A DNA stretch of 64,000 nt from an uncultured Planctomycetaceae bacterium (GCA_964427875.1 CAYRVX010000028.1:387-64386); one strand, 5' to 3'. Shown: positions 1 to 52,074, counted from the first letter of the stretch. Numbers and translations: made by a program. Notes: a model not told the origin generated them from the letters alone.

Positions 1-1104
1 GTGGTGCTGTACGTGATTCTCGGCCGGGGCGGCCTGGCCGACCTGAAGCTGGGGGCCGTGACGTTCCCCCATGTCCTGTGCTGGGTGTCAGCCGTCACCA
101 TCCTCGTCCCGCTGTTCATTGCGATGCTCCAGGACGACGCCAAACGGCTGATCGCGTGGTCGTCGGTCGGCCACGGCGGCTACATGGTGCTGGGGATAGC
201 CTTCGGGACCACGCTGGGGGTCGCGGGAGGCCTGTTCCACGCGCTGAATTACGCGGCGTGCGTGGGGCTGCTGTTCCTGGCCGTCGGCGCCGTGGAGCAC
301 CGTACCGGGACGAGGGACCTGAACGAGCTTGGCGGGCTCATGAAGCGGATGCCCGTGACGTTCGCGACCGCCCTCATCGCCGTCTGCGGATTGATCGGCG
401 TGCCCCTGACGAACGGGTTCGTCTCGAAATGGTTCATCTACAAGACGCTCATCATGGAAGGCCACCCGTTCCTGGCGCTCGTCGCGCTGATCGGAACGTG
501 GGCGACGATCCTGTACGGATACAAGCTGATCCATAACGCCTTCCTGGGCCAGTTGCCCACCCGCTGCGAGAAGGTCGGGGAGGTCCCCTTCTCCATGCAG
601 TTGCCCATGGTCCTTCTGGCCGTGGCGGTGATCCTCTTCGGCGTGCTGCCGGGGATCCCGGTGAGGGCGATCAGCTCGGTCCAGGCGTCGCTCGGCCTGG
701 GATCGCTGGAGAGCGGGCTCTGGGCACTTCCCCCAGCCGTCGGCGAGCTCAACACGATCAACATCCTTTCGGGCGTGGTTGCGTCGCTCGCGATCGTGTA
801 CGTGATATTCGCCCTGGCGAAGAAGGCGCGCCGCGTCGACCAGTTCGACAGCTATGGGGCGGGGTCCTACGTGCCAACCGACCGGTATCAGTACAGCGTC
901 AACTTCTACCAGCGGGCCCACGAGCTCATGGGGCCGTACCTACGCGACAGAGTGGACGACTTCTACGGCTGGCTCGTGGCGAAGGCCGAGGGCTTCTTCG
1001 AGGAGGCCCGGAAGATCTACACCGGCAACGTGAACAGCTACGTGGCTTACATCGTCATTCTCCTGGCGCTGCTGATCCTCTTGAAGATGGGAGGGCAGTT
1101 GTGA
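1..1104 (+). CDS. Complex-I-like antiporter-type membrane subunit (NuoL/M/N / EchA / HyfB family). C-terminal part only; 5' end lies outside the window
   Basis: Long polytopic hydrophobic ORF running from base 1. Motif 'WSSVGHGGYMVLGIAF' resembles the conserved NuoL/M/N/MnhD helix. Directly followed by NuoH/B/C/D/I-like genes in Ech order. Confidence 0.7.
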   Translation: MVLYVILGRGGLADLKLGAVTFPHVLCWVSAVTILVPLFIAMLQDDAKRLIAWSSVGHGGYMVLGIAFGTTLGVAGGLFHALNYAACVGLLFLAVGAVEHRTGTRDLNELGGLMKRMPVTFATALIAVCGLIGVPLTNGFVSKWFIYKTLIMEGHPFLALVALIGTWATILYGYKLIHNAFLGQLPTRCEKVGEVPFSMQLPMVLLAVAVILFGVLPGIPVRAISSVQASLGLGSLESGLWALPPAVGELNTINILSGVVASLAIVYVIFALAKKARRVDQFDSYGAGSYVPTDRYQYSVNFYQRAHELMGPYLRDRVDDFYGWLVAKAEGFFEEARKIYTGNVNSYVAYIVILLALLILLKMGGQL

Positions 1105-2018
1105 TGATCGCTGCGAGCATGGTGACGAGGATCGTCTTCATCGTGGCGCTGCCCGTCGTCGCCTTCCTGGTGGCGGTCCTGTTCCTGGGCCTGTCGAGGA
1201 AGATCACCGCGCGGATCCACCGGAGGTACGGGCCGCCGCTTTACCAGCCGATCATCGACGTTGTGAAGCTGCTCACGCAGAAGGAGAACATCTCGCACGG
1301 CATCCTGTTTGACCTGGGCATACTGCTGGGCCTTGCCGGTGCTCTCCTGACGATCGTTTTCATTCCGGCGGGCGGGATACACCCGCTCTCCACGTCGGGT
1401 GATTTTCTGGTGGTCCTCTACCTCATGCTGCTTTCGCCGCTGGGCCTGGCGCTGGCGGCCGGGGCCTCGGCGAACCCGAACGCGAGCATCGGCGTCTCGC
1501 GCAAGTTCATCCTTGCCCTCGGCTACGAGGTGCCCTTCCTGATGGCGGCCCTCGCCGTGATGACCCGCTTCGAGACGACCTCCCTGGTCGAGATCGTCTC
1601 CACGCAGCGGGGCTCCATCCTGGACTGGGCGGTCTTCGCGGTTCCCCTTCCCGCCGCGGCGACGTTCCTGATCCTGCCGGCCATGCTGGGGATCAGGCCG
1701 TTCGACTTCGCCGCCGCCCCCCAGGAGATCGCCTCGGGTCCCATGGTGGAGTTCGGCGGCAAGTACCTCGCCTTTGCTGCGATCCAGGGCGCCTTGCACA
1801 CGTACATCGTCCTGGCGCTGTTCGTCGATCTGTTCCTCGGAGGCGGGGCCAACATCCTGACCTTCCTCGCCAAGATGCTCGCGGTCTTTTTCGCCGGCAT
1901 ATGCATCAACGCGGTCCTGCCCAGGTTCCGCGTCGAGCAAGGGCTGAGGTATCTCTGGAAATGGCCCGCGATCCTGGCCTTCCTTGGCCTGCTGATTGTG
2001 GCGTTGGGGCCGGAGTAG
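1101..2018 (+). CDS. NuoH/EchB/HyfC-like membrane subunit of the complex-I-like module
   Basis: 305 aa, about 8 TM segments. N-terminal 'RKITARIHRRYGPPLYQPIIDVVKLLTQKE' matches the NuoH 'R.GPN..G..GLLQP.AD..KL..KE' signature. Overlaps the upstream gene by 4 nt. Confidence 0.8.
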   Translation: MMIAASMVTRIVFIVALPVVAFLVAVLFLGLSRKITARIHRRYGPPLYQPIIDVVKLLTQKENISHGILFDLGILLGLAGALLTIVFIPAGGIHPLSTSGDFLVVLYLMLLSPLGLALAAGASANPNASIGVSRKFILALGYEVPFLMAALAVMTRFETTSLVEIVSTQRGSILDWAVFAVPLPAAATFLILPAMLGIRPFDFAAAPQEIASGPMVEFGGKYLAFAAIQGALHTYIVLALFVDLFLGGGANILTFLAKMLAVFFAGICINAVLPRFRVEQGLRYLWKWPAILAFLGLLIVALGPE

Positions 2019-2022
2019 ACAC

Positions 2023-2586
2023 ATGGACAGGGAAGATATCCTAAAGACGCTCAAGAGCCCCGCCAACTGGGGCCAGAAGTACTCGCTGTGGGCGGTGTAC
2101 TTCTGCACCGGCTGCGGCGTGGTCGAGATACCTCCTGTCATCACTTCGCGCTGGGACGCCGAGCGCTTCGGCGTCCTGCCGATGGCCACGCCGAGGCAGG
2201 CGAACCTCTTCCTGATTACGGGGTACGTCTCGGTCAAGACGCTGGGGGCCATCATCAGGACCTACGACCAGATGCCGGACCCGAAGTACGTGGTGGGCTT
2301 CGGCTCCTGCCCGGTCAACGGCGGGATGTACTGGGACTCCTACAACACGATCAAGCACCTCGACAAGTACCTCCCGGTCGACGGCTGGATCGCCGGATGC
2401 ATGCCCCGGCCCGAGGCGATCTTCGTGGCCGTGGTGCATCTCTGGCAGATGATCGACAAGGGAATGGCGACCGGCTACGAGCGGTACAGGGAGAACTATG
2501 AGTACTACGCGAGGAACCAGCGGGAAGTCCTGCCGCACCTGGCGAAGTTCGCCGGGGCCGAAGCGGCGGCGGGGCCGAGCAGTTAG
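2023..2586 (+). CDS. NuoB/EchC-like Fe-S subunit (20 kDa / hydrogenase-small-subunit-like)
   Basis: 'FCTGCGVVE', 'GFGSCPVNGGMY' and 'GCMPRPEAI' give the four Cys of the N2-type cluster, with CxxC as in Ech/hydrogenase small subunits. RBS 'GGAG' 7 nt upstream of ATG 2023. Confidence 0.8.
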   Translation: MDREDILKTLKSPANWGQKYSLWAVYFCTGCGVVEIPPVITSRWDAERFGVLPMATPRQANLFLITGYVSVKTLGAIIRTYDQMPDPKYVVGFGSCPVNGGMYWDSYNTIKHLDKYLPVDGWIAGCMPRPEAIFVAVVHLWQMIDKGMATGYERYRENYEYYARNQREVLPHLAKFAGAEAAAGPSS

Positions 2587-2592
2587 ACGGAC

Positions 2593-3075
2593 ATGATCGA
2601 AGAAGAACTCAAGAAGGCCATCGAGCGGGGCATCGAGGGCGCGGCGGCGACGGTCGCGAAGGCCGGCCGCCTCGTGGCCACCGTGCCCAAGGCGGGGGCG
2701 GTCTCCGCGCTCATCCTGCTTAGGGCGCGCGGCTTCGAGCACCTCTCCGCGATCTCCTGTACGGACTGGATCGAGCAAGGGGAGTTCGAGCTCGTCTATC
2801 ACCTCTGGTCTTACAGGGACAAGGTCCACGTCATGCTGAAGACGCGCCTGCCCAGGGCCGACCCGCGGAGCGTGACGGCCGTGCCCGTCTTCCAGCACGC
2901 GCAGACCTACGAGCGCGAAATACACGAGATGTACGGAGTGCACTTCGAGGGCAACGGCAGGCTCACGCCTTTCCTCCTCGACCACTGGCAAGGGCCGCCG
3001 CCGATGAGAAGGGACTTCGACACGCGACAATACGTTCAAGACACTTTCGGTTCGACTCCGTCAGCAGAGGAATAA
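2593..3075 (+). CDS. NuoC/EchD-like 30 kDa subunit
   Basis: 160 aa. 'FEHLSAISCTDW...ELVYHLWS...REIHEMYGVHFEGN' matches the NuoC/HycE-N family pattern. Confidence 0.75.
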   Translation: MIEEELKKAIERGIEGAAATVAKAGRLVATVPKAGAVSALILLRARGFEHLSAISCTDWIEQGEFELVYHLWSYRDKVHVMLKTRLPRADPRSVTAVPVFQHAQTYEREIHEMYGVHFEGNGRLTPFLLDHWQGPPPMRRDFDTRQYVQDTFGSTPSAEE

Positions 3076-3078
3076 GAA

Positions 3079-3375
3079 ATGCTTACGGAAGAAGAAGTGA
3101 TCCGGGTGATGTCGAAGACCGCGCATCCTGAAATCGATTACAGTCTGCTCGACCTGGGCATGATCAAGGAAGTTGTTGTTGAACAAGAGACGGTAAAAGT
3201 AACCATAAACCTGCCCTTTCCGGAGGTACCTATAAAGGACCATCTTGTTCAGATTGTAAAGGATGCAATAGCTGAGAAGCATGAGCGTGCGGCAGTGGAG
3301 GTGATCTTCTCTGTTATGAACGAAGCGGAGCGGGAAGAATTCAGAAGGAAGGCCCGGGACAAATGGAAGTTGTGA
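3079..3375 (+). CDS. DUF59 / MIP18-family (SufT-like) small protein inserted in the operon; conspicuously low GC
   Basis: 98 aa. 'EEEVIRVMSKTAHPEIDYSLLDLGMIKEVVVEQETVKVTINLPFPEVPIK' fits the DUF59 core (DPEl..sl.dLGli..v.v....v.v.mtlT.p.CP), although the usual CP Cys is absent. GC roughly 48% against ~68% in flanking genes. Confidence 0.6.
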   Translation: MLTEEEVIRVMSKTAHPEIDYSLLDLGMIKEVVVEQETVKVTINLPFPEVPIKDHLVQIVKDAIAEKHERAAVEVIFSVMNEAEREEFRRKARDKWKL

Positions 3376-4505
3376 CGCACGCCTCGAACAAGGAAAAAAC
3401 GGGTTCCGCGAGGGAGCTGGAGCTATATTTCGGTCCGCAGCACGTCGGCATGGTGGGCAACTTCGGCATCGTGCTGACCGTCGAGGGGGACACGGTCGTC
3501 AGGGCCCGCTCGAACCCCGGGTACCTTCACCGGGGCTTCGAGAAGCTCATGGAGTACCGCACGTACATCCAGAACTTCCCATTGGTCTGCCGCCTCAACG
3601 TGATGGACCCCGACCCCAAGGAGATGGTCTACGCCATGGCGGTGGAGGACCTGGCGGGACTCGAGGTACCCCGGAGGGCACATTACATAAGAACCATCGT
3701 CCTGGAGATGTCCCGGATAACCTCCCACCTGTTCTGGCTGTGGGGCTTCGGCAACCTGCTCGGCTTCGACACCATCGGCCAGTGGGCCATGGGCGACCGC
3801 GACTACTTCCTCGACGGTTTCGAGATGCTCTGCGGCGGCCGCGTGTATCACACCTACATCTGGCCGGGCGGTGTGCGACGCGACCTGCCCGAGGGTTTCG
3901 ACGAGAAGCTCCGCTTGGCCCTGGACAACCTCGAGAGGATGCTCCCGGACTACGACGAGGTCTTCTTCAACAACCGCATCTTCGCCGACAGGACCCGCGG
4001 GATCGCTCCCTTCACGCGAGACCAGGCCGTATCCATGGGCCTGACCGGGACCAACCTCCGGGCCACGGGCGCGGACGTCGACGTCCGCCGGGACGAGCCG
4101 TACGCCGCCTACGCCGAGCTCGACTTCGACATCCCCACGATGGACGGCGGCGATTCCTACTCGCGCGCGGTGGTGATCCGCCTGGAACTGGAGCAGAGCA
4201 TATCCATCATCCGGCAGGCCCTGGAGCGGATGCCCGGCGGGCCCGCCTGGAAGAAGACGCCCAACCCGTTCAAGTGGGTGATCCCGCCGGGCGAGACCTA
4301 CGTGAAGATCGAGTCGGCCAGGGGCGAGGACGGCATGTACCTGGTATCGGACGGCAGCGACAAGCCGAGAAGGGCCTTGGTCAGGGGGCCCTCTTTCCCG
4401 GCGGCGATCCTGATGCTCGAGAGACTGCTCGAGGGGGCGAGCCTCTCCGATGTCGGCCATATCATGCTGAGTCTCAACATCGCGGCGCCGGAGGTGGACA
4501 GGTGA
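3363..4505 (+). CDS. NuoD/EchE-like 49 kDa large subunit lacking NiFe-binding cysteines (complex-I / Ehr type)
   Basis: 'YFGPQHVGMVGNFGIVLTVEGDTVV' followed by 'PGYLHRGFEKLMEYRTY', which is NuoD-like in place of the hydrogenase RxCGxC. No C-terminal DPCxxC. Only 2 Cys in 380 aa, neither at a ligand position. Confidence 0.8.
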   Translation: MEVVTHASNKEKTGSARELELYFGPQHVGMVGNFGIVLTVEGDTVVRARSNPGYLHRGFEKLMEYRTYIQNFPLVCRLNVMDPDPKEMVYAMAVEDLAGLEVPRRAHYIRTIVLEMSRITSHLFWLWGFGNLLGFDTIGQWAMGDRDYFLDGFEMLCGGRVYHTYIWPGGVRRDLPEGFDEKLRLALDNLERMLPDYDEVFFNNRIFADRTRGIAPFTRDQAVSMGLTGTNLRATGADVDVRRDEPYAAYAELDFDIPTMDGGDSYSRAVVIRLELEQSISIIRQALERMPGGPAWKKTPNPFKWVIPPGETYVKIESARGEDGMYLVSDGSDKPRRALVRGPSFPAAILMLERLLEGASLSDVGHIMLSLNIAAPEVDR

Positions 4506-4530
4506 TGGCAGCAGACGGAGTCAACCCAAG

Positions 4531-6390
4531 GTGATCAGCGAGAAAAAAAGCATCTTCCGGCCGTTCGCGGCGCTGAAGTACCTCCTTCGAAAGCCGCATA
4601 CGTTCTGCTTCCCCTTCCAGCAGAAGCCGACGGCGGACAGGTACCGGGGCCTTCACATCAACGACAGGGAGTCCTGCACGGGCTGCGGCAACTGCGCCGA
4701 CATCTGCCCCAACCAGGCGATCACGATGGTAGAGCAGCCCGACGTGGAGACCAGGCCGGGCAAGAAGAACGAGCTTCCCCAGGTGGACTACGGCCGGTGC
4801 TGCTTCTGCGGCCTCTGCGTGGACATCTGCCCGCCGGGGAGCCTTTCGCTGGCCAAGGACTTCCTCCACATCGCCCCGAGCCCGGACAGCTTCCTGGCGT
4901 ACACGCCGGACAGCGAGAAGTCCGGCGACGAGGCCTTCGTGGCGCGGTCGGAGTACTCCATCCTGAAGGCAAGCCTGGCGCACCGGCTGGCCGACAACGC
5001 GGGGTTCGTATCCGAGATGGATTACTCGCTCGTGGACTTCGAGCGGGTCCCCATGGAGGTCCTTCCGGCGGAGCAGAGGAAGGGCTCCTTCGTGGAGATG
5101 GTGAGGGGGTTCTCCGAAGACCAGGCGCGAAGGGAGGCCTCGAGGTGCCTGGAGTGCGGCCTGTGCGAGGACGCCTGCCCCGCCAACATGGGGATTTCTG
5201 ATTACGTCCGCGCGATCTGGGAAGGCGACGAGGACGAGGCCGTCAGGGTCATTTACGAGAAGAACCCCCTGCCGGGCATCTGCGGGCGGATCTGCACGCA
5301 CAAGTGTGAGGAGGCCTGCGGCATCGGCAGGCGGGGGGAGCCCGTCGCCATACGCTGGCTGAAGCGCTTCGCGACCGACCATCTTCCCGGCGAAAGGCTC
5401 CGGCAGATTCTGGGGACCGGGCCCGCCAAGGCCGGGCAGAAGACCGTGGCGATCGTGGGGGCCGGACCCGCCGGCCTGAGCTGCGCCTACTATCTGGCCG
5501 TCGCCGGGTATCCCTCCACGATCCTCGAGGCCCGGCCGAAGCCGGGCGGGACCATGCGCTACGGCATCCCCGAGTACCGGCTCCCGTATGATGCGATCGA
5601 CAAGGACGTCGGCTACATAGAGTCCGTCGGCGTCGAGATACGATGCAATACCCGCGTGGGCGAGCACATCACCATCGAGGAGCTGCATAGAGACTTCGAT
5701 GCGGTCTTCCTCGCCACCGGATTCCACGTGGGGCGAAGCACCGGGGTCGAGGGAACCGACCACGAACACGTGTTGCAGGCCATCGACCTCCTGGGCGACA
5801 TTACCGAGGGCAAGGAGGTGACGGTCGGGAAGAAGATCGTGGTGATCGGGGGCGGCGACGTCGCCATGGACATCGCACGCAGCATGGCCCGGCTACAGGT
5901 GGAGAGGTACGGCCATGCCGACACCACCTGCTGCTGCCTGGAATCTGAAGACATCATACCCGCCACCAGGGAGGAGATCGACGAGGCCCGGGAGGAGGGC
6001 ATAGCGATTTGCACCTCACGGGGTCCGGAGAGGATCGAGATAGAGTCCGGCAGGATCAAAGGGCTGCACACGGTGGAATGCACGTCCGTCTTCGACGAGC
6101 AGGGCCGGTTCAGCCCCAAGTTCAATCGGGAGGACAGGCGGTTCTTCGAAGGGGACATGGTCATCGAGGCGATCGGCCAGGCGCCGGACCTCTCCTACAT
6201 ACCCGAGGGGCTCGACGAGAAGCTGGAGAAAGAGGGCCGCCGGATCAAGGTGTCGCAGCAGTTCCAGAGCAGTGTCCCCTGGCTCTTCGTGGGCGGCGAC
6301 CTGATCGAGGGGCCGGACGTCATCCACGCCATCGCCAATGGCTACGAGGCGGCCAAGGGGATAGCCGGCTTCCTCGAGGGCCAGCCATAG
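4531..6390 (+). CDS. Fusion protein: NuoI/EchF-like 2x[4Fe-4S] ferredoxin domain joined to a GltD/NfnB/SudA-like NAD(P)H-dependent FAD oxidoreductase domain
   Basis: N-terminus has 'CTGCGNCADICP' and 'CCFCGLCVDICPPG' (NuoI). Then 'CLECGLCEDACP' and 'CGRICTHKCEEACG' (GltD-type clusters). Then Rossmann 'KTVAIVGAGPAGLSCAYYL...GGTMRYGIPEYRLP' and a second 'IVVIGGGDVAMD'. 619 aa in a single ORF. Confidence 0.8.
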   Translation: MISEKKSIFRPFAALKYLLRKPHTFCFPFQQKPTADRYRGLHINDRESCTGCGNCADICPNQAITMVEQPDVETRPGKKNELPQVDYGRCCFCGLCVDICPPGSLSLAKDFLHIAPSPDSFLAYTPDSEKSGDEAFVARSEYSILKASLAHRLADNAGFVSEMDYSLVDFERVPMEVLPAEQRKGSFVEMVRGFSEDQARREASRCLECGLCEDACPANMGISDYVRAIWEGDEDEAVRVIYEKNPLPGICGRICTHKCEEACGIGRRGEPVAIRWLKRFATDHLPGERLRQILGTGPAKAGQKTVAIVGAGPAGLSCAYYLAVAGYPSTILEARPKPGGTMRYGIPEYRLPYDAIDKDVGYIESVGVEIRCNTRVGEHITIEELHRDFDAVFLATGFHVGRSTGVEGTDHEHVLQAIDLLGDITEGKEVTVGKKIVVIGGGDVAMDIARSMARLQVERYGHADTTCCCLESEDIIPATREEIDEAREEGIAICTSRGPERIEIESGRIKGLHTVECTSVFDEQGRFSPKFNREDRRFFEGDMVIEAIGQAPDLSYIPEGLDEKLEKEGRRIKVSQQFQSSVPWLFVGGDLIEGPDVIHAIANGYEAAKGIAGFLEGQP

Positions 6391-6447: not shown

Positions 6448-6855
6448 TCAGAATCGACGCAGCCGCAACCTGCCGAACTGCGCGAGCGTCTGCGTTTGCC
6501 AAACCAGCGCGGTCCTGATCCTCGCAACGTCGATCGGGTTGTGCTCGTCGGTGATCACCGCGCCGCGGTCGGTCGCCAGGTCCAGCCGCCGGGTGACCGG
6601 CTCGTAGGCCGGCGGATCCACGTCGCCGGCGTCCTCCTGACGGAAATCGGCCCGGCGTTCGTCATGGTCGCCTGCACGCAGGCGGGCGAAGAGGCACTCG
6701 CCCATAGCAGGAAACTCGATGAGGCAGGCCCAGGCGACCTCTCCGCGGCGGAGAAGCTGAAGCGCGATGTGCGCCTTGGCGCCCAGGCTCGTGGAATGCG
6801 GCAGGCATCCCGACATCGCGCATGGTTCAAACGCTGTTACCTGCGTTTGAACCAT
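6448..6855 (-). CDS. Hypothetical Cys-containing small protein (very uncertain; the region may be non-coding)
   Basis: 135-aa ORF from ATG 6855 with an AGGA-type RBS 8 nt upstream on the minus strand. The start codon lies inside a 14-bp hairpin stem. No recognisable domain. The opposite-strand ORF is equally GC3-rich. Confidence 0.15.
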   Translation of the reverse strand: MVQTQVTAFEPCAMSGCLPHSTSLGAKAHIALQLLRRGEVAWACLIEFPAMGECLFARLRAGDHDERRADFRQEDAGDVDPPAYEPVTRRLDLATDRGAVITDEHNPIDVARIRTALVWQTQTLAQFGRLRLRRF

Positions 6856-6866
6856 GCCATTTTTCC
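6819..6866 (+). terminator. Perfect 14-bp stem / 10-nt loop hairpin followed by CATTTTTCC. An intrinsic-terminator-like element on the + strand that also overlaps the candidate start of the minus-strand ORF
   Basis: 6819-6832 'gcatggttcaaacg' pairs with 6843-6856 'cgtttgaaccatgc'. The T-run is at 6859-6863. Confidence 0.35.
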
Positions 6867-6947: not shown

Positions 6948-6982
6948 TCTTCGCCAAAGAGCGGTACACTCTTTGGCGAAGA
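6948..6982. repeat. Perfect 14-bp inverted repeat with a 7-nt loop (tcttcgccaaagag-cggtaca-ctctttggcgaaga), sitting immediately upstream of an AAGGAG RBS
   Basis: Read directly from the sequence. Followed 7 nt later by AAGGAG (6990-6995). Confidence 0.5.
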
Positions 6983-10960: not shown

Positions 10961-13264
10961 ATGAAATCACAAGGTGTGCCATCCGAGCCAGGCGAGCCGC
11001 GTCCGGGCGCCGAGCCCGTGCGCTACGTGCTGGCGGCGGCGGGCTTGCTGACCGCCGTGGCACTGGCTCTGGTTTACCTTTCGCCGGACCTCGCCTCCTG
11101 GGCGCGAACGGCTCTAGGGACGGCCCAGCTCGTCCTGGTGGGCGTCTTTGTCGCCGAGCGCGGGCGCCGGCTCCTCCTGGCCCGCCGGGCGAAGCAGTTC
11201 CTCCTCGAACACTGGATGGACCTGTCCCTGCTGGGCGCGGCGGCCCTGCTGGTCGTGCTGGGGCTCGCCGCGGGGGGACGATTCCTTCCCGCCGCGGCGA
11301 TGTACGTCCTGCTGTCGCGAAGCTGGCTGCTCGTGCCGCGCCGGCGGCTGCCGGTCGCCCTGAACGTCCTGCTGGCCCTGACGGGCGCCGTGGCCGTGGC
11401 AGCTCTTGTCCTGGAGTACGGCTTTCACGCCCCGCCGGTCGACCGCAACGTGCTTCACGCGGTGCAGACCGTCGTGGTGGCGGTGTTCATCCTGGATCGC
11501 ATCGTGCGCCTGGAGTCGGCGCCCAGCCGCCCGGCATATCTGAAGGACAACTGGGTGGACTTCGGCCTGATGGTTGTGGCGGCCGTGGCCATCACGGTCA
11601 CCCGGCACCTGCACGGCGAGATCCTTTCGGCCGGGGCGCTGTACGTCATCATCACACAGGTCTACATCCTCATCTCGCTGGTCCTTCGGGGAGTAAGCGT
11701 GAGCCTCGACGTCGCCGGCAGCGGCGTTCACTCGACGTGGCTGCTGATCGGCAGTTTCGCCGCGATGTGCCTGGTGGGCTCGGGCCTGCTGACACTCCCG
11801 GCCGCCACACAAATCACCCAGGCGCCCACGACGCAAGCGGGGACGCAGAGCAGTCAGATCACCCGACAACTCGGGGAGCCGATCTCCTACGTGGACGCTC
11901 TTTTCACGGCCACCAGCGCCACGTGCGTGACGGGGCTGGTGGTGCGGGACACGGGGGCCGACTTCACGCCGTTCGGCCAGGCGGTGATCCTCGGGCTGAT
12001 CCAGATGGGCGGCCTGGGGATCATGCTGTTCGGCACGATGCTGGCGCTGCTGGTGGGCAAGGGGCTTACCGTCCGCTCCAGCGAGGCGCTGGGAGAGATG
12101 ATCGGCACGGAAGGCATCGGCCGGATCACGCGGATCGTGAAGTTCGTGGTCGCCGTCGCGATCGGATTCGAGGTCCTGGGGGCCGTGCTGCTGTATCCCA
12201 TGTTCGCCTCGGCGCAGGGCCCGGCGGTGCCCACAGCGGGCCGGGCCCTGTGGGACAGCGTCTTCCACAGCGTTTCGAGCTTCTGCAACGCGGGCTTCGC
12301 GCTGTACGGCAGGAACATGATGGCCGGCGCGCCGGAAGGCTGGTCCCAGCCGCTGCGGGGTCACTGGCAGGTCCTTGGCGTGATGGCCCCGCTGATCGTG
12401 GTAGGCGGGCTGGGCTTCCCCGTGATCGAGGACTGCGCGAAGTACTTCCGAGCGCTGCTGGTCCGGCTCGTGGGGCGAGCCTTCCCCTCCGGGCACAGGC
12501 GGATGGGGCGGGCGCCGAGGCTTTCCCTGCACTCCAGGATGGTCCTGTCCGTCAGCGCCGCGCTGATCGTGGCGGGCGCGGCGGGTCTGCTGCTGCTGGG
12601 GCCCAGCCGCCGGACGGGGAGGCAACAGATCGGCCGAGTTCCACTGGCCGGCCCCGACGGCCGGGTCCAAGAGGACCCGTCACGGTGGCGGAACATGCCC
12701 ACCGGCGGGCGCATCGGCGCGGCGTTGTTTCAGTCGGTCTCGGCGCGGACGGCCGGCTTCAACACGATCGACATGCGCGACGACCTCTCGGACGCCAGCC
12801 GGCTGTGGATATGCGGGCTGATGGTCGTTGGCGGCAGTCCGGCCAGCACGGCCGGCGGGGTCAAGACGGTCACGGTCGCGATCCTGCTGCTGGCGGCCTG
12901 GTCGATGATCCGGCGCCGCAACGCCGTCGAGGCCTTCAAGCGAACCATCCCGGTGGTGCTCCTGCGCCGGGCCGTGACCCTCTTCATCCTGTACCTCGCC
13001 CTCGTGGGGACGGTGACGCTCCTGCTGTGCGTGGCCACGCCGGGCGGGGATTTCATGCGGCTGCTCTTCGAGGCGTGCAGCGCGTGCGGGACGGTCGGGC
13101 TGTCCACGGGGATCACGCCGTCGCTGTCGATGTTCGGCAAGATCGTCGTGATCGTCGGGATGTTCGCCGGGCGGCTTGGGCCGCTGACGCTGCTGCTCGC
13201 CCTGACCGCCAGGATCCGCCACGTGAGATACTCCTATCCCTCGGAAAACCTAGTCATCGGGTGA
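10961..13264 (+). CDS. trkH: TrkH/KtrB-family K+ transporter with an ~270-aa extra N-terminal membrane domain
   Basis: Core 'FTATSATCVTGLVVRDTGADFTPFGQAVILGLIQMGGLGIM' and 'FQSVSARTAGFNTIDM...GGSPASTAGGVKT' match TrkH selectivity-filter repeats. 767 aa, against ~480 for a typical TrkH. Confidence 0.85.
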   Translation: MKSQGVPSEPGEPRPGAEPVRYVLAAAGLLTAVALALVYLSPDLASWARTALGTAQLVLVGVFVAERGRRLLLARRAKQFLLEHWMDLSLLGAAALLVVLGLAAGGRFLPAAAMYVLLSRSWLLVPRRRLPVALNVLLALTGAVAVAALVLEYGFHAPPVDRNVLHAVQTVVVAVFILDRIVRLESAPSRPAYLKDNWVDFGLMVVAAVAITVTRHLHGEILSAGALYVIITQVYILISLVLRGVSVSLDVAGSGVHSTWLLIGSFAAMCLVGSGLLTLPAATQITQAPTTQAGTQSSQITRQLGEPISYVDALFTATSATCVTGLVVRDTGADFTPFGQAVILGLIQMGGLGIMLFGTMLALLVGKGLTVRSSEALGEMIGTEGIGRITRIVKFVVAVAIGFEVLGAVLLYPMFASAQGPAVPTAGRALWDSVFHSVSSFCNAGFALYGRNMMAGAPEGWSQPLRGHWQVLGVMAPLIVVGGLGFPVIEDCAKYFRALLVRLVGRAFPSGHRRMGRAPRLSLHSRMVLSVSAALIVAGAAGLLLLGPSRRTGRQQIGRVPLAGPDGRVQEDPSRWRNMPTGGRIGAALFQSVSARTAGFNTIDMRDDLSDASRLWICGLMVVGGSPASTAGGVKTVTVAILLLAAWSMIRRRNAVEAFKRTIPVVLLRRAVTLFILYLALVGTVTLLLCVATPGGDFMRLLFEACSACGTVGLSTGITPSLSMFGKIVVIVGMFAGRLGPLTLLLALTARIRHVRYSYPSENLVIG

Positions 13265-13268
13265 GATC

Positions 13269-13955
13269 ATGGAACGTTTCGCTGTCATCGGACTGGGCCG
13301 GTTCGGCATGCGGCTGGCGACGTCGCTGGCCGACGCCGGGGCGGAGGTCATCGCCATCGATCGCGACCCCGACATCGTGGAGGAGGTCAAGGACCGCGTC
13401 ACGCTGGCGGTCTGCCTGGACGCCACCGACGAACAGGCCCTCCGCGCCCAGGGCATCGACAAGGTGGACGTCGCGATCGTGGGGATCGGGGCGAACTTCG
13501 AGGAAAGCGTCCTCTCGACGGTGATTCTCAAGCAGATCGGCGTGCCCCGCGTCATCAGCCGGGCCACGACGAGCACTCGCGGGCAGATCCTCTCGCGGGT
13601 CGGGGCCGATGACATCGTCAACCCGGAGCGCGAGTCGGCCGCCCGGTGGCGTACCCGCCTGCTCGCACCGACTGTGCTCGAGCGGAGCGTGCTGGCCGAA
13701 GGCTTCAGCCTCGCGCAGGTGGAGGCCCCCGAGAGCTTCCACAACCAGACGCTGGCGGAGCTGCACGTCGGCTCCCGCTACAAGGTTCTGGTGGTGGCCT
13801 TTCGACGAACGATCCGGGAAACAGATGAAAGCGGACAGACGCGGACCCGCGAGACGCTCGTCAGCGCCCCCGGGCCGACCAGCGTCGTCGAGCCCGGCGA
13901 CGTGCTGGTGCTGATCGGCAGCGACGAGGCCATCGAGGCCTTCCCCACGAAGTAA
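13269..13955 (+). CDS. trkA: TrkA/KtrA NAD-binding regulatory subunit (RCK domain)
   Basis: 'RFAVIGLGRFGMRLATSLADAGAEVIAIDRDPD' Rossmann fold plus a C-terminal RCK_C-like region. Lies 4 nt after the trkH stop. Confidence 0.85.
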   Translation: MERFAVIGLGRFGMRLATSLADAGAEVIAIDRDPDIVEEVKDRVTLAVCLDATDEQALRAQGIDKVDVAIVGIGANFEESVLSTVILKQIGVPRVISRATTSTRGQILSRVGADDIVNPERESAARWRTRLLAPTVLERSVLAEGFSLAQVEAPESFHNQTLAELHVGSRYKVLVVAFRRTIRETDESGQTRTRETLVSAPGPTSVVEPGDVLVLIGSDEAIEAFPTK

Positions 13956-33863: not shown

Positions 33864-34934
33864 TTAGAGATGATCGGAGAATCCCGCGAGATTCCTTGAG
33901 TGCCACTTCCACGCGGTCTCGATGATGCTGTCGATGTCGGTGTACCGGGGCCGCCAGCCGAGGACCCGGGCGGCCAGGCCGGCGTCGCCTACCAGTTCGG
34001 CCGGATCGCCGGGCCGGCGGGGGGCGATCTCGAAGGGGATCTCCACGCCCGTCACGCGCTGAGAGGCGGCGATGACCTCGCGGACCGAGAAGCCCGCTCC
34101 GTTGGCCAGGTTGACGGCGACCGGGTCGCCGCCGGCCAGCAGGTAATCCAAGGCCTGAAGATGCGCGCTGCCCAGGTCGAGCACGTGGACGTAGTCGCGC
34201 ACACAGGTGCCGTCGCGGGTCTCGTAGTCGTCGCCGAAGATCTCCAGCGGCTCGTCGCGCCCGCCCTCGCGGGCCTCCGGGCGAGCGACCCGGAGAGCCT
34301 GACGCAGCACCAATGGGATCAAATGCGTCTCCGGGTCGTGGTCTTCGCCGATGGACCCGTCGGGCATCGCCCCGGCCGCATTGAAGTACCTCAGCGACAC
34401 CCATCTGAATCCGTAGGCGAGCTCGAAGTCACCGAGGATCTGCTCGAACATCGCCTTGGTCCGGCCATACGGGCTGATGGGGCGGATGCGGCACGACTCG
34501 TCGACGGGAACACGCTCGGGATGTCCATACACCGTGCAGGACGAAGAGAACACGATGTTTCGCACGTCGGCGTCCAGCATGGCCTCCAGCAGCAACAGGC
34601 CGTTGGCCAGGTTGTTTCGGTAGTACTTCCGGGGGTCCTCGACGGACTCCCCCACGTAGGCGTTGGCGCAGAAGTGCATGACCGCCGTCACGTCGTGCGA
34701 GGCGAAAACGCTTGCCAGAACGGCCTTGTCCCCTACGGAACCGGCGATCAACTCCACGTCTTCCGGCAGCGAAGCGCGGTGGCCGGTGGACAGGTCGTCC
34801 ATAACGACGGGCCTGCGCCCGGCCTCGATGAGCATCCGGACCACGTGGCTGCCGATATACCCGGCCCCGCCGCAGACGAGCACGGCCCCATTTCCCTGGC
34901 CGGCGGACCCGGTTCCCGATTGGCCGTCAGTCAT
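33864..34934 (-). CDS. galE: UDP-glucose 4-epimerase
   Basis: 'VLVCGGAGYIGSHVV', 'YGRTK' (YxxxK). The ORF extends to 34973, but ATG 34934 sits 4 nt after the stop of the upstream gene. Confidence 0.8.
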   Translation of the reverse strand: MTDGQSGTGSAGQGNGAVLVCGGAGYIGSHVVRMLIEAGRRPVVMDDLSTGHRASLPEDVELIAGSVGDKAVLASVFASHDVTAVMHFCANAYVGESVEDPRKYYRNNLANGLLLLEAMLDADVRNIVFSSSCTVYGHPERVPVDESCRIRPISPYGRTKAMFEQILGDFELAYGFRWVSLRYFNAAGAMPDGSIGEDHDPETHLIPLVLRQALRVARPEAREGGRDEPLEIFGDDYETRDGTCVRDYVHVLDLGSAHLQALDYLLAGGDPVAVNLANGAGFSVREVIAASQRVTGVEIPFEIAPRRPGDPAELVGDAGLAARVLGWRPRYTDIDSIIETAWKWHSRNLAGFSDHL

Positions 34935-36051
34935 TGCCGCCCACGTCCTTCGGCGCGTCGGTGGTTCTCTCAATGGGCCGGACGGGCAGGGTCCCGCCGA
35001 TGATCGTCAGCGGGAAGCACTGCATTTGTGGATATGCGTCCGTGATCTTGCGCATTGCCTCGTCGCGATCGGCGGCGCCGCGGGCAACGAACTGCGCCGT
35101 TCCGTCGCCCTGGCTGCCGACGCCCTTTCCGCCGTGGACGTTTGGCCTGATGTCCCCCATCGCCAGCAGCTCGTGCAAGATGGGGCTGCCAAGCTCCACC
35201 CCGCTGCCGGGGGCGATCAGCCGATCGAAGTTCTCTTGGGCCTTCACCATGAGCCGGCCAAGCCACTCCGCGTCGCCCGCTCCCAGCGCGCGGTAAGCCT
35301 CACGGACGATCGTCTCGTTGTTCGGCCCCAGACCGCTTTGCAGGTCCCGGCTGGAAAGGTATGCCGACTGAAGATCGGAGAGGATCCTCACGGTGTTCTT
35401 CTTGCCGGCCAGGTCCACGAAGAACATGTGGACCTCGCCTCCGGCAAAAACGGGCTCGACCCGGATCTCGGCGGACTTCTGGAACGTCAGCAGCACGGGC
35501 GTCTTGCCGTAGATGCAGGCCTGGTCCATCCGGCCGCACTGGCTGCCGGTGAGCCGCTCGCCAAGGTACGCCGCCTCCATCAGCTCGTGCGGGAACATCC
35601 CCAGGCCGTACACTTCGTCGAACGCCTTGGCCATCAGAATGCACACCGCCGCCGAGCTCGACACGCCCTTTTGCAGCGGCAGGTCCATCGCCGTGATACT
35701 CAGGTGGATTCCCCCGCCCACGCCCGGGCGGCTGGACATCTCGTAGGCGACACCCGCGCAGTAGCGAAAGAACTCCTTCTCATCCCTCGCCGCTTCCAGG
35801 AGCGTCTCGGGCCTCCAGTGACAGCTCATCTGCCGCCGCCGCCCGCTCGGGCGGCCGAGCTTGTCCGGCAACTGCGACTCGACCACGAACGAATCAGCCG
35901 GACGCGCAACCGCGGAGAGGCCCTGGTCCGTGCCGATCACCAGGCAGAAGCCCTTGTGGAGCCCGTACTCGGCCGCCCAGTCGCTGTGTTCGCCGAAGAG
36001 GCACAACCGGCCGGGAACAAACAGCCTGGTCTCGTCCGTCGTCTCTTTCAT
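34927..36051 (-). CDS. GHMP-family sugar kinase (galactokinase-like)
   Basis: 'PGRLCLFGEHSDW' (the GalK 'PGRVNLIGEHTDY' motif) and 'GVSSSAAV' (GHMP motif II). Confidence 0.7.
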   Translation of the reverse strand: MKETTDETRLFVPGRLCLFGEHSDWAAEYGLHKGFCLVIGTDQGLSAVARPADSFVVESQLPDKLGRPSGRRRQMSCHWRPETLLEAARDEKEFFRYCAGVAYEMSSRPGVGGGIHLSITAMDLPLQKGVSSSAAVCILMAKAFDEVYGLGMFPHELMEAAYLGERLTGSQCGRMDQACIYGKTPVLLTFQKSAEIRVEPVFAGGEVHMFFVDLAGKKNTVRILSDLQSAYLSSRDLQSGLGPNNETIVREAYRALGAGDAEWLGRLMVKAQENFDRLIAPGSGVELGSPILHELLAMGDIRPNVHGGKGVGSQGDGTAQFVARGAADRDEAMRKITDAYPQMQCFPLTIIGGTLPVRPIERTTDAPKDVGGND

Positions 36052-36173
36052 GACCGTGCCTCTCGTCGCCGGCGCCTTGGCAGCTCACCTGGGCGTATTA
36101 TTGCGGCGGCCGCGGGCGGCCGCAAGGTTCGTTCGGCTGCGCCCGGGCGCCGCCACGCCCGCCGAGAACCGCC

Positions 36174-37412
36174 TCAGTCCATCGAGAAATGCTCCGAGAA
36201 ATCCCGCACCCAGCCGCCCGCAAGGGCGTCGAAGTCGCGCTGGAGCGTGCGGAACCGCTCGGTCGACCAGTCCTTCCGGGCGATCGCGTCGCCCAGGGAG
36301 TAGGTCGGGAGCTTGAACATCAGGCTTGCCGTCGTCAGCGCCGTGCTGTTGCCGCCGATCACGATATCGTCGCTGCGCATCTGCGCGAGGATTCTCTCCG
36401 CCGCCTGCCCTTCGCCCAAAACGCGGACGCGCCCGGCGGCCACTTCGCTGATGGAGTCATACTTCCCCGGTACCTCCCGGGGATGCGGCTTGACGTAGAC
36501 GTCCAGCCCCTCGGCAACCAGCCTGCGGACGACGCTCTTGAGGAGATCCATGGTCTGCGGTCCCGGCAGGAAGCCGTCTTCGATCCAGGGCTGGGACAGG
36601 ATCAAGGCAGCAGGCCGGTCGGACGAGCGAGGCAGCAGGACCTTCTCGCCGACGGCGGTGAGGATCGCCTGGCGGTAGTCGGCCGCCACGTCGGCGTCCA
36701 GCGTCATGGTGCCGGTCGTCTCGTCCTGCCAGAACAGCAGCCTCCGCTCGACGGGATATGCCCGGACAACGGCCCGGAACGCCCACGTCCAGAGCAGGTA
36801 GGCCAGGCAGTCCAGCCAGTCGGTCGCGAAGATGCGCCCCTCGTCGGTCCGGTCCATTTTTCGGGCGAAGTTCCAGGACTCCCTGGAGGCGTAGGTGCTG
36901 AGCCCTTCGTCGAGGATCACGAACCGCACGTCGCGGGTCCGCAGCAGCCTCCAGGTGCTGATCTGCGCGAGGGTGAACACGGCCGCCCCCGGGTGATACG
37001 GCGAGGCGACGCGGAGAATCGGCAGGTGCCGCCGCGGGCGGCCACGCGGACCCAGCAGCCACAGCCGCACAAGGAGAGCCGCCATCCTTCCCACTTCCAG
37101 GACCCGACCCGCCCCCGGGCGGTCGAGGACCTGCCGGGCCGCGAGGAAGATGATCCTGCCGTCGGCCCGGGAGAGCGGCAGGTCGGCCTGGTCTATGAGC
37201 GTCCCTCTGCCCAGGTGCGGCAGGATCAGAACGACGCCCTTTCGCCGCTCGCCGTGGCTGCGAAGGCGGCTCACCCAGGCATCGGCTCCCATGGCATGCC
37301 AGGGCGAGGTGGCCGCCGCGATGAAGCCGAGGTCTTCCGTGGCAATAAGTCGCCGGATCTCCTCGACGGCTTCGCCGAAGCCCTTCAGCTCGATGCCAAC
37401 GGCCTGAGCCAA
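36174..37412 (-). CDS. Putative bacterial sialyltransferase-like glycosyltransferase
   Basis: Contains both signature short motifs of bacterial sialyltransferases: D/E-D/E-G ('VRFVILDEGLSTY') and HP ('YVKPHPREVPG'). Sits directly upstream of the CMP-nonulosonate synthetase and NeuB genes. Confidence 0.4.
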   Translation of the reverse strand: MAQAVGIELKGFGEAVEEIRRLIATEDLGFIAAATSPWHAMGADAWVSRLRSHGERRKGVVLILPHLGRGTLIDQADLPLSRADGRIIFLAARQVLDRPGAGRVLEVGRMAALLVRLWLLGPRGRPRRHLPILRVASPYHPGAAVFTLAQISTWRLLRTRDVRFVILDEGLSTYASRESWNFARKMDRTDEGRIFATDWLDCLAYLLWTWAFRAVVRAYPVERRLLFWQDETTGTMTLDADVAADYRQAILTAVGEKVLLPRSSDRPAALILSQPWIEDGFLPGPQTMDLLKSVVRRLVAEGLDVYVKPHPREVPGKYDSISEVAAGRVRVLGEGQAAERILAQMRSDDIVIGGNSTALTTASLMFKLPTYSLGDAIARKDWSTERFRTLQRDFDALAGGWVRDFSEHFSMD

Positions 37413-37584
37413 CGCATTCTCCTTGCGCCCGTCGACTGTCGGGATATCGGAAGGATTCTAGTGGATTCAAGGCAGGAATTCATCTGATGCAGCGTGGCCT
37501 CCGCCGACCAACGACCCTGGCGGCATGGAGAGAACCGCCCAAGAAACGCTTGTGAACCGCCCGGACCTGCTGATATAAGCACTG

Positions 37585-39710: not shown

Positions 39711-39782
39711 AGCGACGTTGCCGACCGGCCCGCCTTTATGTCCCCCGGCATGCCGGGCCTCCTACCGCGCTCTTTGGCTCGC

Positions 39783-41075: not shown

Positions 41076-41236
41076 GAGCGCTCTCCACAAGCAAGGAGCC
41101 CACGCGGGATCATACGATTTGCGTCCCGGTCGGCAAGCCACGGCCGGCTCGGCGCCCGGCGATGCGCCTGTGCCGCGCAGCGTCTTGATGACGGCCTCGC
41201 GGGCTCAGCACCGTCGCGGATCGGTCCCCCTTGGCC

Positions 41237-52051: not shown

Positions 52052-52074
52052 CCCCAACAGGACGGTCCGAGCAA

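What the first reader, a model, noticed from the sequence alone, without database searches (positions are those of the whole stretch)
1..6390. Ech-ordered complex-I-like (Ehr-type) module with a cysteine-less large subunit and a NuoI-GltD fusion as the apparent NAD(P)H input
The gene order is antiporter-like, NuoH, NuoB, NuoC, [DUF59], NuoD, NuoI. That reproduces echABCDEF. The NuoD/EchE homolog carries 'GYLHRGFEKL' where [NiFe] hydrogenases have RxCGxC, and it has no C-terminal DPCxxC, so it cannot bind NiFe. The NuoB homolog keeps all four cluster Cys in hydrogenase-like CxxC form. The terminal NuoI-like ferredoxin is fused in one 619-aa ORF to a GltD/SudA/NfnB-like module: two extra Cys clusters plus two Rossmann GxGxxG motifs (FAD + NAD(P)H). 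This would give a compact ion-translocating oxidoreductase wired directly to NAD(P)H with no NuoEFG. Its electron acceptor is unknown: quinone, polysulfide or something else. Energy-converting hydrogenase-related complexes are known as a class. I do not recognise this fused NAD(P)H module as a characterised architecture.
Basis: partly seen in the sequence, partly recalled or inferred. Interest (0 to 1): 0.7.

Follow-up and report, generated by a model that had tools for sequence, protein, structure and literature searches.

The report
Bacterial MBS-type ion pump, NADH-fed
The window holds the last seven genes of a 14-gene bacterial relative of the archaeal sulfur-reducing respiratory complex MBS, whose ferredoxin-docking subunit is fused to a flavoprotein that probably oxidises NADH; this family is widespread, has been noted in the literature, and has not been studied biochemically.

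Summary
Window 1-6390 encodes, on the + strand, an antiporter-like C-terminus, NuoH-, NuoB-, NuoC-like genes, a DUF59 gene, a NuoD-like gene and a 619-aa NuoI-GltD fusion.

The "Ech-ordered compact module" reading comes from the window edge. A 99.9%-identical metagenome contig (L085) shows an ArsR-type regulator gene and eight more genes upstream. These encode Mrp subunits E, F and G, MbhD- and MbhE/MnhB-like proteins, a NuoK-like protein, a 495-aa antiporter-like subunit and the start of the 621-aa one. This is the mbx/mbs gene order.

Every subunit tested is closest, among solved structures, to Pyrococcus furiosus MBS (6U8Y).

- **Large subunit.** It lacks all four NiFe cysteines (N79, D82, A374, E377), including the two that MBS keeps. 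It also lacks the complex I quinone His and Tyr.
- **NuoB homolog.** It aligns without gaps to MbsJ, and all four cluster cysteines match.
- **Fusion.** It is a conserved family: thousands of homologs, a full-length match to NCBIfam PRK13984, and a mention by Degli Esposti (2015) for Thermotoga and proteobacteria.
- **Cofactor.** The NADPH-binding YRR motif is replaced family-wide by L-E-x, which predicts NADH.

Best reading: an NADH-driven, ion-translocating MBS-like reductase. The acceptor is probably sulfane sulfur but is unproven. It is a new member of a known, uncharacterised kind.

The parts
1..1104 (+). C-terminal 367 aa of a 621-aa antiporter-like subunit (MbsH'-like). The gene starts upstream of the window.
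   Evidence: PF00361. NCBIfam PRK08668, profile positions 250-611 of 613. The full 621-aa protein from L085 matches 6u8y_X (618 aa; here read as MbsH') over residues 10-617 versus 8-616, E 7e-80.
1104..2018 (+). Membrane anchor of the peripheral arm (NuoH/MbsM-like, 304 aa).
   Evidence: PF00146, E 4e-59. The gene is called at this start in L085.
2023..2586 (+). NuoB/MbsJ-like subunit carrying the proximal [4Fe-4S] cluster (187 aa). Cys at positions 28, 31, 96 and 126.
   Evidence: Ungapped 157-residue alignment to 6u8y_J, E 6e-69, 235 bits; the next best hit scores 135 bits. The four Cys align with MbsJ C25, C28, C93 and C123.
2593..3075 (+). NuoC/MbsK-like subunit (160 aa).
   Evidence: PF00329, E 2e-28.
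3079..3375 (+). 98-aa DUF59 protein with no cysteine, on a low-GC insertion of about 340 bp (roughly window 3060-3400). Its stop codon overlaps the start of the next gene.
   Evidence: PF01883. GC 48% and GC3 0.57, against 64-65% and 0.84-0.91 for the neighbouring genes. Absent from three 83-90% identical operons (alignment A2) and from L001-L016. Present at the same spot in L086, L087 and L088.
3363..4505 (+). NuoD/MbsL-like large subunit (380 aa) with no NiFe ligands: N79, D82, A374, E377. It has V31 and V80 where Thermus Nqo4 has H38 and Y87.
   Evidence: 6u8y_L E 1e-103, 350 bits; Nqo4 249 bits; MbhL 143; HycE 98. Alignments; residue numbers. The first 15 residues are encoded by the insertion.
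4531..6390 (+). 619-aa fusion. Residues 1-112 are a NuoI/MbsN-like 2x[4Fe-4S] domain. Residues 113-170 are a conserved linker. Residues 171-290 are an NfnB/GltD-type 2x[4Fe-4S] domain. Residues 300-619 are the FAD and NAD(H) Rossmann domains (GAGPAG at 310, GGGDVAMD at 440, L470-E471-S472 in place of YRR).
   Evidence: Pfam and NCBIfam matches. PDB hits 6u8y_N for residues 2-112; 9bov_A, 9n5u_A and 8oh5_C for roughly residues 174/212-618; 4ylf_B and 5jca_L for residues 171/172-618. Invariant Cys in alignment A1. Motif alignments. Residue numbers.

Best explanation
The window carries the distal half of a 14-gene operon. The operon encodes a bacterial MBS/MBX-type respiratory complex, probably from a Phycisphaerae-like planctomycete. 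An Mrp-derived membrane arm has two antiporter-like subunits plus MrpC-, E-, F- and G-like, MbhD-like and MbhE/MnhB-like subunits. It is joined through an MbsM-like anchor to a peripheral arm of MbsJ-, K-, L- and N-like subunits.

**Shown.** The subunit set, its order, and its closest similarity to P. furiosus MBS. The loss of every NiFe ligand. The absence of the complex I quinone His and Tyr. The MbsJ-type CxxC motif with MBS spacing. A conserved fusion of MbsN to an NfnB/GltD-type flavoprotein.

**Inferred mechanism.** NADH, rather than NADPH, donates a hydride to the FAD of the fused module, because the YRR phosphate-binding motif is L-E-S here. Electrons then pass one at a time through the module's two [4Fe-4S] clusters, the two clusters of the MbsN domain and the proximal cluster of the MbsJ homolog. 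From there they reach a substrate in the chamber formed by the MbsL, MbsJ and MbsM homologs. By analogy with MBS, that reduction drives Na+/H+ export through the Mrp-like arm.

The most likely acceptor is sulfane sulfur (polysulfide), as in MBS. This is the weakest step.

The DUF59 gene is a lineage-specific, laterally acquired add-on. It is either an accessory subunit or an assembly factor.
For: **Full operon.** L085 is identical to the window at 13362 of 13375 overlapping bases.

**MBS is the best solved-structure hit for each subunit tested.**
- Large subunit: 350 bits, versus 249 for Nqo4.
- NuoB homolog: 235 bits, versus 135 for the next hit.
- NuoI domain: 89 bits to 6u8y_N, versus 63 or less for the other hits to that domain.
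- 621-aa antiporter subunit: 273 bits, versus 216 for MbhH.

**Conserved gene order.** The order antiporter, NuoH, NuoB, NuoC, NuoD, fusion recurs in loci from Spirochaetes, Fermentibacteraceae, Planctomycetota, Bacteroidales (L006), Izemoplasmatales/Tenericutes, Gammaproteobacteria and Cloacimonadota. In L003 the NuoB homolog was not picked up by tblastn.

**Cysteines are dispensable in MBS.** The MbsL C85A/C385A and MbsJ C25A mutants keep full activity, and catalysis sits on the 3-Cys proximal cluster (PMC7684303). Loss of the two vestigial Cys is therefore compatible with MBS-type chemistry.

**MbsJ motif.** It is conserved without gaps.

**Nucleotide specificity.** NfnB Y310-R311-R312 hold the phosphate of NADPH. 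DsrL enzymes with YRR use NADP(H), and those without it use NAD(H), as shown experimentally (PMC7596348). The NADPH-type relatives shown have YRR where the window has LES. L-E is invariant in all 17 diverse family members.

**Link to sulfur.** T. maritima mbxA is induced 4.4-fold by S0 (PMC9431562). The literature says T. maritima MBX carries the gltD-type subunit (PMC4758237).
Against: - No activity data exist for any member.
- NADH to polysulfide offers only about 60 mV, roughly 12 kJ per 2 e-. This is my estimate from standard potentials; PMC8165549 gives 42 kJ for ferredoxin-driven MBS and 12 kJ for MBH. That is little for a membrane arm with two antiporter-like subunits.
- The window's subclade has lost both Cys that MBS retains, and its L1 region reads RLNVMDPD where most relatives have RICVPEPD. 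This could signal a different acceptor.
- No sulfur-metabolism gene lies next to the operon.
- AlphaFold gave no usable model of the NuoI domain or the linker (pLDDT below 50 for residues 1-170). The continuity of the Fe-S wire between the two modules is therefore assumed, not shown.
- Older papers assign bacterial Mbx a ferredoxin:NAD(P)+ role.
Confidence: 0.5

Rival explanations
1. Ferredoxin:NAD+ oxidoreductase, Rnf-like; this is the classical 'Mbx' hypothesis. Reduced ferredoxin docks on the MbsN domain, electrons run outward to the fused FAD and reduce NAD+, and this somehow drives ion export.
For: Genome papers annotate bacterial Mbx this way. A covalently attached NAD-binding module fits an NAD+ reduction site. 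Ferredoxin to NAD+ offers more driving force than NADH to sulfur.
Against: P. furiosus MBX was re-assigned as a sulfane reductase (PMC7684303). In this route electrons would never reach the proximal cluster and chamber, which is the only known coupling site in the MBH, MBS and complex I superfamily. Yet the MbsJ motif and the MbsL and MbsM homologs are fully conserved. No ferredoxin site can be assessed here.
Confidence: 0.15
2. NADH:menaquinone oxidoreductase. This would be an alternative 'complex I' in which one fused flavoprotein replaces NuoEFG and a remodelled chamber binds quinone.
For: The window's subclade has lost both MBS-type Cys and carries an invariant C76-R-x-N79 signature. NADH to menaquinone would power two antiporter modules comfortably. 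That planctomycetes generally make menaquinone is my own knowledge, not tested here.
Against: The positions of Nqo4 H38 and Y87 hold V31 and V80. None of the 16 family large subunits aligned has His or Tyr at these two positions, and positions 31 and 80 are V/I/M in the 120 clusters. The NuoB homolog has CxxC, not the tandem CC of complex I. The family occurs in T. maritima, in which no cytochrome or quinone requirement has been found (PMC9431562).
Confidence: 0.12
3. Flavin-based electron bifurcation or confurcation. The NfnB-like FAD would split or merge electron pairs between the Fe-S wire and a second partner.
For: The closest solved relatives of the flavoprotein module are bifurcating NfnB and StnC.
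Against: No NfnA-like partner lies in the operon. The YRR motif of NfnB is absent. The Glu ligand of the NfnB proximal cluster (E117) aligns with an invariant Lys, K278. GltD and DsrL show that this fold also works without bifurcation.
Confidence: 0.05
4. A compact Ech-like six- or seven-subunit module. Alternatively, an assembly artefact that joins separate NuoI and GltD genes.
For: The six visible genes follow the echABCDEF order.
Against: The operon continues upstream with the full Mrp set. The fusion is found in thousands of homologs and in an independent assembly.
Confidence: 0.02

Closest known systems
Pyrococcus furiosus MBS (membrane-bound sulfane reductase, formerly MBX; PDB 6U8Y)
   Same: The 13-gene Mrp-type operon order. 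Best solved-structure hit for the large subunit, the NuoB and NuoI homologs and the 621-aa antiporter-like subunit. An MbsJ-type CxxC motif of identical length. No complex I quinone His or Tyr. No functional NiFe site.
   Different: MbsN is fused here to an FAD, NAD(H) and 2x[4Fe-4S] module, whereas MBS takes electrons from free ferredoxin. MbsL C85 and C385 are N79 and A374 here. There is an extra DUF59 gene. The host is a bacterium that I take to be mesophilic.
Bacterial 'mbx-like' operons of Thermotoga and proteobacteria (Degli Esposti 2015, PMC4758237); T. maritima 13-subunit MBX (PMC9431562)
   Same: An mbx-type operon in which NuoI is replaced by, or fused to, a gltD-related flavoprotein. 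The family is covered by NCBIfam NF010590/PRK13984.
   Different: Most members examined here keep both MBS-type Cys (L001, L002, L007-L009, L012, L015, L016). Many end in a rubrerythrin gene or domain. The window's subclade has neither of these features and adds DUF59. None has been purified.
NfnB, StnC, DsrL and GltD iron-sulfur flavoproteins
   Same: An N-terminal 2x[4Fe-4S] domain (Fer4_20) plus FAD and NAD(P) Rossmann domains. About 230-270 bits to solved members.
   Different: YRR (NADPH) is replaced by LES, as in the NAD(H)-using DsrL-1 enzymes. The Glu ligand of NfnB aligns with Lys. There is no NfnA partner. The module is covalently attached to a complex-I-type ferredoxin subunit.
Respiratory complex I (Nuo/Nqo)
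   Same: Homologs of NuoB, C, D, H, I, K and L/M/N. NADH as the likely donor.
   Different: No NuoEFG. CxxC instead of tandem CC in NuoB. No H38 or Y87. An Mrp-type membrane arm with MrpE, F and G homologs.
Ech hydrogenase and Ehr complexes
   Same: The order of the six distal genes. The lack of NiFe ligands fits the broad 'Ehr' label, under which Mbx is listed (PMC6349859).
   Different: As I recall (not tested here), Ech has six subunits, one antiporter-like protein and all four NiFe cysteines. This operon has 14 genes and none of those cysteines.

Membership tests
MBS/MBX (Mrp-type membrane-bound sulfane reductase) | 13-gene operon in the order mbsABCDEGHH'MJKLN, with the full set of Mrp homologs and two antiporter-like subunits | tested here: met
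   L085, the same genome, has MnhE, MrpF, MnhG, MbhD, MbhE/MnhB, NuoK-like, 495-aa and 621-aa antiporter-like genes, then NuoH, B, C, D and I homologs. The same order is seen in L081, L082 and L086.
MBS/MBX | Large subunit keeps two of the four NiFe cysteines (MbsL C85 and C385) | tested here: not met
   N79 and A374 sit at those positions. The same holds for the 120 nearest clusters. These Cys are dispensable for MBS activity.
MBS/MBX | MbsJ-type short CxxC loop, which leaves the proximal cluster with three Cys ligands | tested here: met
   Ungapped alignment to MbsJ with C25, C28, C93 and C123 all matched. The actual coordination cannot be tested from sequence.
MBS/MBX | Ferredoxin as donor and polysulfide as acceptor, with Na+ export | not testable with these tools
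   The fused NAD(H) flavoprotein argues for a different donor. The acceptor is inferred only.
[NiFe] hydrogenase group 4 (Ech, MBH, Hyc) | L1 (RxCGxC) and L2 (DPCxxC) cysteines | tested here: not met
   HycE C241, C244, C531 and C534 align with N79, D82, A374 and E377.
Respiratory complex I | Quinone-binding His and Tyr of the 49-kDa subunit, tandem Cys in NuoB, and a NuoEFG input module | tested here: not met
   V31 and V80. CxxC. No NuoE, F or G in the operon.
NCBIfam NF010590 (PRK13984, 'putative oxidoreductase', equivalog) | Whole-protein score above the curated cut-off of 946 bits | tested here: not met
   800.6 bits, E 7e-241, covering profile positions 7-608 of 611. The architecture is the same over the full length, but the score is below the equivalog threshold.
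NfnB/GltD-type NADPH-dependent iron-sulfur flavoprotein | Fer4_20 domain with two clusters plus two Rossmann folds | tested here: met
   PF14691 E 8e-29 and PF07992 E 5e-25. Eight invariant Cys.
NfnB/GltD-type NADPH-dependent iron-sulfur flavoprotein | YRR motif that binds the 2'-phosphate of NADPH | tested here: not met
   LES in the window and L-E-x in all 17 aligned family members. The rule comes from PMC7596348.

The most novel reading that the evidence does not exclude
The subclade with no NiFe-position Cys and a C76-R-x-N79 signature would be a distinct respiratory enzyme. It is found in Phycisphaerae and other Planctomycetes, Bipolaricaulota, Latescibacteria and Sumerlaeota. In it, a single fused NADH-specific flavoprotein does the job of the three-subunit N-module of complex I and feeds an MBS-like Mrp ion pump. 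Its acceptor might not be the polysulfide used by archaeal MBS. That would be an independent solution to coupling NADH oxidation to ion translocation in quinone-poor anaerobes.
Probability: 0.35. Interest if true: 0.65.

Novelty: new member of a known kind. Interest (0 to 1): 0.4.

Why it matters
Bacterial MBX/MBS-like operons with a GltD-fused MbsN occur in many anaerobic phyla, yet their donor, acceptor and ion stoichiometry have never been measured. If NADH is the donor, these complexes are a second, independent way of wiring NADH to a complex-I-type pump. They would also change energy budgets drawn for many uncultured fermenters, where they are now annotated as 'NADH-quinone oxidoreductase' and 'glutamate synthase small chain'.

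The YRR to L-E-x change gives a concrete, testable prediction. For this particular window the value is modest. It is one more member of the family, with two lineage-specific features: loss of both vestigial cysteines and an inserted DUF59 gene.

Tried and rejected
- **Exact-sequence look-ups.** Look-ups of the NuoH and NuoD homologs found nothing. The DUF59 protein (P0121) did lead to the source-like contig L085.
- **Genome scan.** Cluster look-ups gave no organism names. Taxonomy therefore rests on named large-subunit hits: Phycisphaerae at 79% identity.
- **Structure prediction.** The AlphaFold model of the fusion was confident only for residues 171-619. The NuoI domain and linker had pLDDT below 50. 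No inter-domain geometry or fold search was attempted.
- **Representative search.** The 50%-identity representative search was too coarse to survey motif variants. The 90%-cluster search was used instead.
- **Literature.** Searches for a biochemical characterisation of the fused enzyme found none in the held library. One 'Ehr' search was swamped by health-record papers.
- **Neighbourhood and RNA.** No tRNA, Rfam family, sigma-70-type promoter or convincing terminator was found in or near the operon. Downstream neighbours are not conserved among relatives, so they say nothing about the acceptor.
- **Considered and rejected.** An Ech-type hydrogenase, canonical complex I and an assembly frameshift.

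Full report
**1. What is in the sequence**

Window 1-6390 carries seven co-directional, tightly packed ORFs with the codon bias of the host (GC3 0.84-0.91). The exception is a 98-codon ORF with GC3 0.57.

Pfam and NCBIfam assign the ORFs as follows:
- an antiporter-like protein, of which only the C-terminal 367 aa lie in the window;
- a NuoH-like protein;
- a NuoB-like protein;
- a NuoC-like protein;
- a DUF59 protein (PF01883);
- a NuoD-like protein;
- a 619-aa protein with a NuoI-type 2x[4Fe-4S] domain (residues 45-103), a Fer4_20 domain (185-284) and a Pyr_redox_2 flavoprotein part (305-599).

E-values run from 1e-10 to 1e-73, so chance is not an issue.

**2. The operon is cut by the window edge and is of the MBS/MBX type, not the Ech type**

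The DUF59 protein occurs with 100% identity on a JGI metagenome contig (L085). That contig is identical to the window at 13362 of 13375 overlapping bases.

Upstream of window position 1 it carries an ArsR/SmtB-type regulator gene. Genes for MnhE, MrpF, MnhG, MbhD, MbhE/MnhB, a NuoK-like protein, a 495-aa antiporter-like subunit and the first 254 residues of the 621-aa antiporter-like subunit follow it. With the genes in the window this gives the order of mbsABCDEGHH'MJKLN, plus DUF59.

Relatives with 83-84% identical fusion proteins (L081, L082), and the DUF59-bearing relative L086, show the same 13 genes.

Among solved structures each subunit tested is closest to P. furiosus MBS (6U8Y):

| Subunit | Score vs MBS | Other scores |
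|---|---|---|
| Large subunit | 350 bits | Nqo4 249, MbhL 143, HycE 98 |
| NuoB homolog | 235 bits | next best 135 |
| NuoI domain | 89 bits | 63 or less for other hits to this domain |
| 621-aa antiporter subunit | 273 bits, full length, to chain 6u8y_X | MbhH 216 |

The visible order does resemble echABCDEF, but only because the distal six genes of mbs and ech are arranged alike.

**3. The catalytic-site region**

An alignment with E. coli HycE, P. furiosus MbsL and 15 family members (numbering) gives these equivalences:

| Reference residue | Window residue |
|---|---|
| HycE C241 | N79 |
| HycE C244 | D82 |
| HycE C531 | A374 |
| HycE C534 | E377 |
| MbsL C85 | N79 |
| MbsL C385 | A374 |
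| Nqo4 H38 | V31 |
| Nqo4 Y87 | V80 |

The true L1 equivalent lies about 20 residues further on.

Loss of both vestigial cysteines is a clade feature. All 120 nearest large-subunit clusters (58-97% identity) lack Cys at position 374. All have Cys76-Arg77, and 119 of 120 have Asn79. The named sources are Phycisphaerae, Planctomycetes, Bipolaricaulota, Latescibacteria and Sumerlaeota.

More distant fusion-bearing operons keep both Cys. These come from Spirochaetes, Fermentibacteraceae, Gammaproteobacteria and Izemoplasmatales MAGs. The two Bacteroidales MAGs and the Cloacimonadota MAG keep only the first Cys and have Tyr at the second position.

In MBS these two Cys, and MbsJ C25, can be mutated without loss of activity. 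Catalysis is assigned there to the proximal cluster, which has only three Cys ligands because the MbsJ loop is three residues shorter than in MBH (PMC7684303). The window's NuoB homolog aligns with MbsJ over 157 residues without a gap, and the equivalents of C25, C28, C93 and C123 all match. The feature that defines the MBS mechanism is thus conserved at sequence level.

**4. The fusion**

The 619-aa ORF has more than 7800 database homologs. Many are full length at 595-637 aa. A further group of about 748-774 aa carries a C-terminal extension that is a rubrerythrin domain in at least some members.

In an alignment of 17 diverse members the following are conserved:
- seven of the eight Cys of the NuoI domain are invariant (C49, C52, C55, C59, C90, C96, C100) and C93 is nearly so;
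- the eight Cys of the GltD-type Fe-S domain are invariant (C206, C209, C212, C216, C251, C255, C259, C263);
- both Rossmann glycine motifs are conserved;
- parts of the 58-residue linker are conserved.

NCBIfam holds a full-length model (NF010590/PRK13984). The window scores 800.6 bits against it, below the equivalog cut-off of 946.

In loci from MAGs assigned to several phyla the gene follows the NuoD homolog in the same operon order. The fusion is therefore genuine and old.

[quoted passage not shown] T. maritima's 13-subunit MBX is induced by S0 (PMC9431562). I found no biochemical study of the fused enzyme.

**5. NADH rather than NADPH**

In T. maritima NfnB the phosphate of NADPH is held by Y310-R311-R312. 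DsrL enzymes with YRR use NADP(H), and those without it use NAD(H). This was shown kinetically (PMC7596348).

In the alignments shown, StnC (8oh5_C), 9n5u_A, 9bov_A and the P. furiosus Nfn enzymes (5jca_L, 5vj7_A) have YRR exactly where the window has L470-E471-S472. L-E is invariant across the 17 family members. An acidic residue at this place is the usual mark of NAD(H) preference. That last point rests on established knowledge of Rossmann folds and is an inference here.

The Glu that ligates the proximal cluster in NfnB (E117) aligns with an invariant Lys, K278. No NfnA-like gene is present in the operon. Both points weigh against bifurcation.

**6. How it most likely works**

Shown: the architecture and the motifs.

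Inferred: NADH reduces the FAD. Electrons pass through four [4Fe-4S] clusters of the fusion protein to the proximal cluster of the MbsJ homolog. There they reduce a substrate in the chamber formed by the MbsL, MbsJ and MbsM homologs, and this drives the Mrp-like arm.

I favour NADH as the donor, rather than NAD+ as the acceptor. In this superfamily the only known coupling site is the chamber at the proximal cluster, and that region is fully conserved here.

The acceptor is probably sulfane sulfur, by homology and by the T. maritima induction data. Three points count against it:
- the driving force from NADH is small (about 60 mV by my estimate, comparable to the 12 kJ per 2 e- that PMC8165549 quotes for MBH);
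- the L1 region of the clade has changed;
- no sulfur gene is adjacent to the operon.

Rivals are a ferredoxin:NAD+ oxidoreductase, an NADH:menaquinone oxidoreductase and a bifurcating enzyme.

**7. The DUF59 gene**

The gene sits on an insertion of about 340 bp with 48% GC, in a 64-65% GC operon. The insertion removed the ancestral ATG of the NuoD homolog: ATGAGGGAG became GCGAGGGAG. It supplies a new start codon, which overlaps the DUF59 stop, and 15 new N-terminal residues.

The gene is present in some close relatives and absent in others:
- present in the contig that carries P0001/P0122;
- present in L086, L087 and L088, with 67% identity and a more host-like 60% GC;
- absent in L081, L082 and L083;
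- absent in all distant operons.

The protein has no cysteine. Its role, as an accessory subunit or an assembly factor, is unknown.

**8. Verdict**

This is a new member of a known but biochemically uncharacterised family, the bacterial MBS/MBX-like complexes with a GltD-fused MbsN. It has three points of added interest:
- a predicted NADH specificity shared by the whole family;
- membership of a subclade that has lost even the two cysteines retained by MBS;
- a laterally inserted DUF59 gene.

Interest is moderate.

Noticed in passing
window 3060-3400: A low-GC (48%) insertion of about 340 bp carries a 98-aa DUF59 gene with no cysteine, between the NuoC and NuoD homologs. It replaced the ancestral NuoD start codon. 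It is patchily present among close relatives.
   Followed up: yes
L085 1734-2078 (about 5.2 kb upstream of window position 1): An ArsR/SmtB-family regulator gene lies directly upstream of the operon. It is conserved in L081, L082 and L086. Its second-best NCBIfam match is the sulfite-sensing BigR family, below that family's cut-off.
   Followed up: partly
window 50720-52635: An RnfC/PduS-like flavo-Fe-S protein has its RnfC_N barrel at the C-terminus. A PduT/EutM-type microcompartment shell protein follows it. This looks like a fragment of a bacterial microcompartment locus, not an Rnf operon.
   Followed up: partly
window 33864-42532: A cluster for sialic/nonulosonic-acid-type surface polysaccharide: NeuB, a cytidylyltransferase, a polysialyltransferase-like protein, a pyruvyl transferase, a flippase, an epimerase/dehydratase and a GHMP kinase.
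   Followed up: no
window 10961-13955: A 767-aa TrkH-family protein next to a TrkA gene. The listed Pfam match covers residues 578-747, and the protein appears to carry a long N-terminal membrane extension.
   Followed up: no
window 6820-6857 (+) and 6948-6982 (-): Two long hairpins of 15-16 bp, each followed by a T-run, lie in the region after the operon. They may be terminators of the flanking genes.
   Followed up: no
L003 11788-12777; L006 11817-12806; L009 7847-8413: In the two Bacteroidales loci, a 329-aa gene that looks PyrD/DHOD-like (judged from its N-terminal sequence only) directly follows the fusion gene. In L009 a gene that looks rubrerythrin-like follows it. Variants of the fusion of about 748-774 aa carry a C-terminal extension that is a rubrerythrin domain in at least some members.
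   Followed up: partly
window 3588-3590 (Cys76 of the large subunit): A cysteine immediately before the conserved Arg of the former L1 motif is invariant in all 120 nearest large-subunit clusters. P. furiosus MbsL lacks it. It may stand in for the lost C85.
   Followed up: partly
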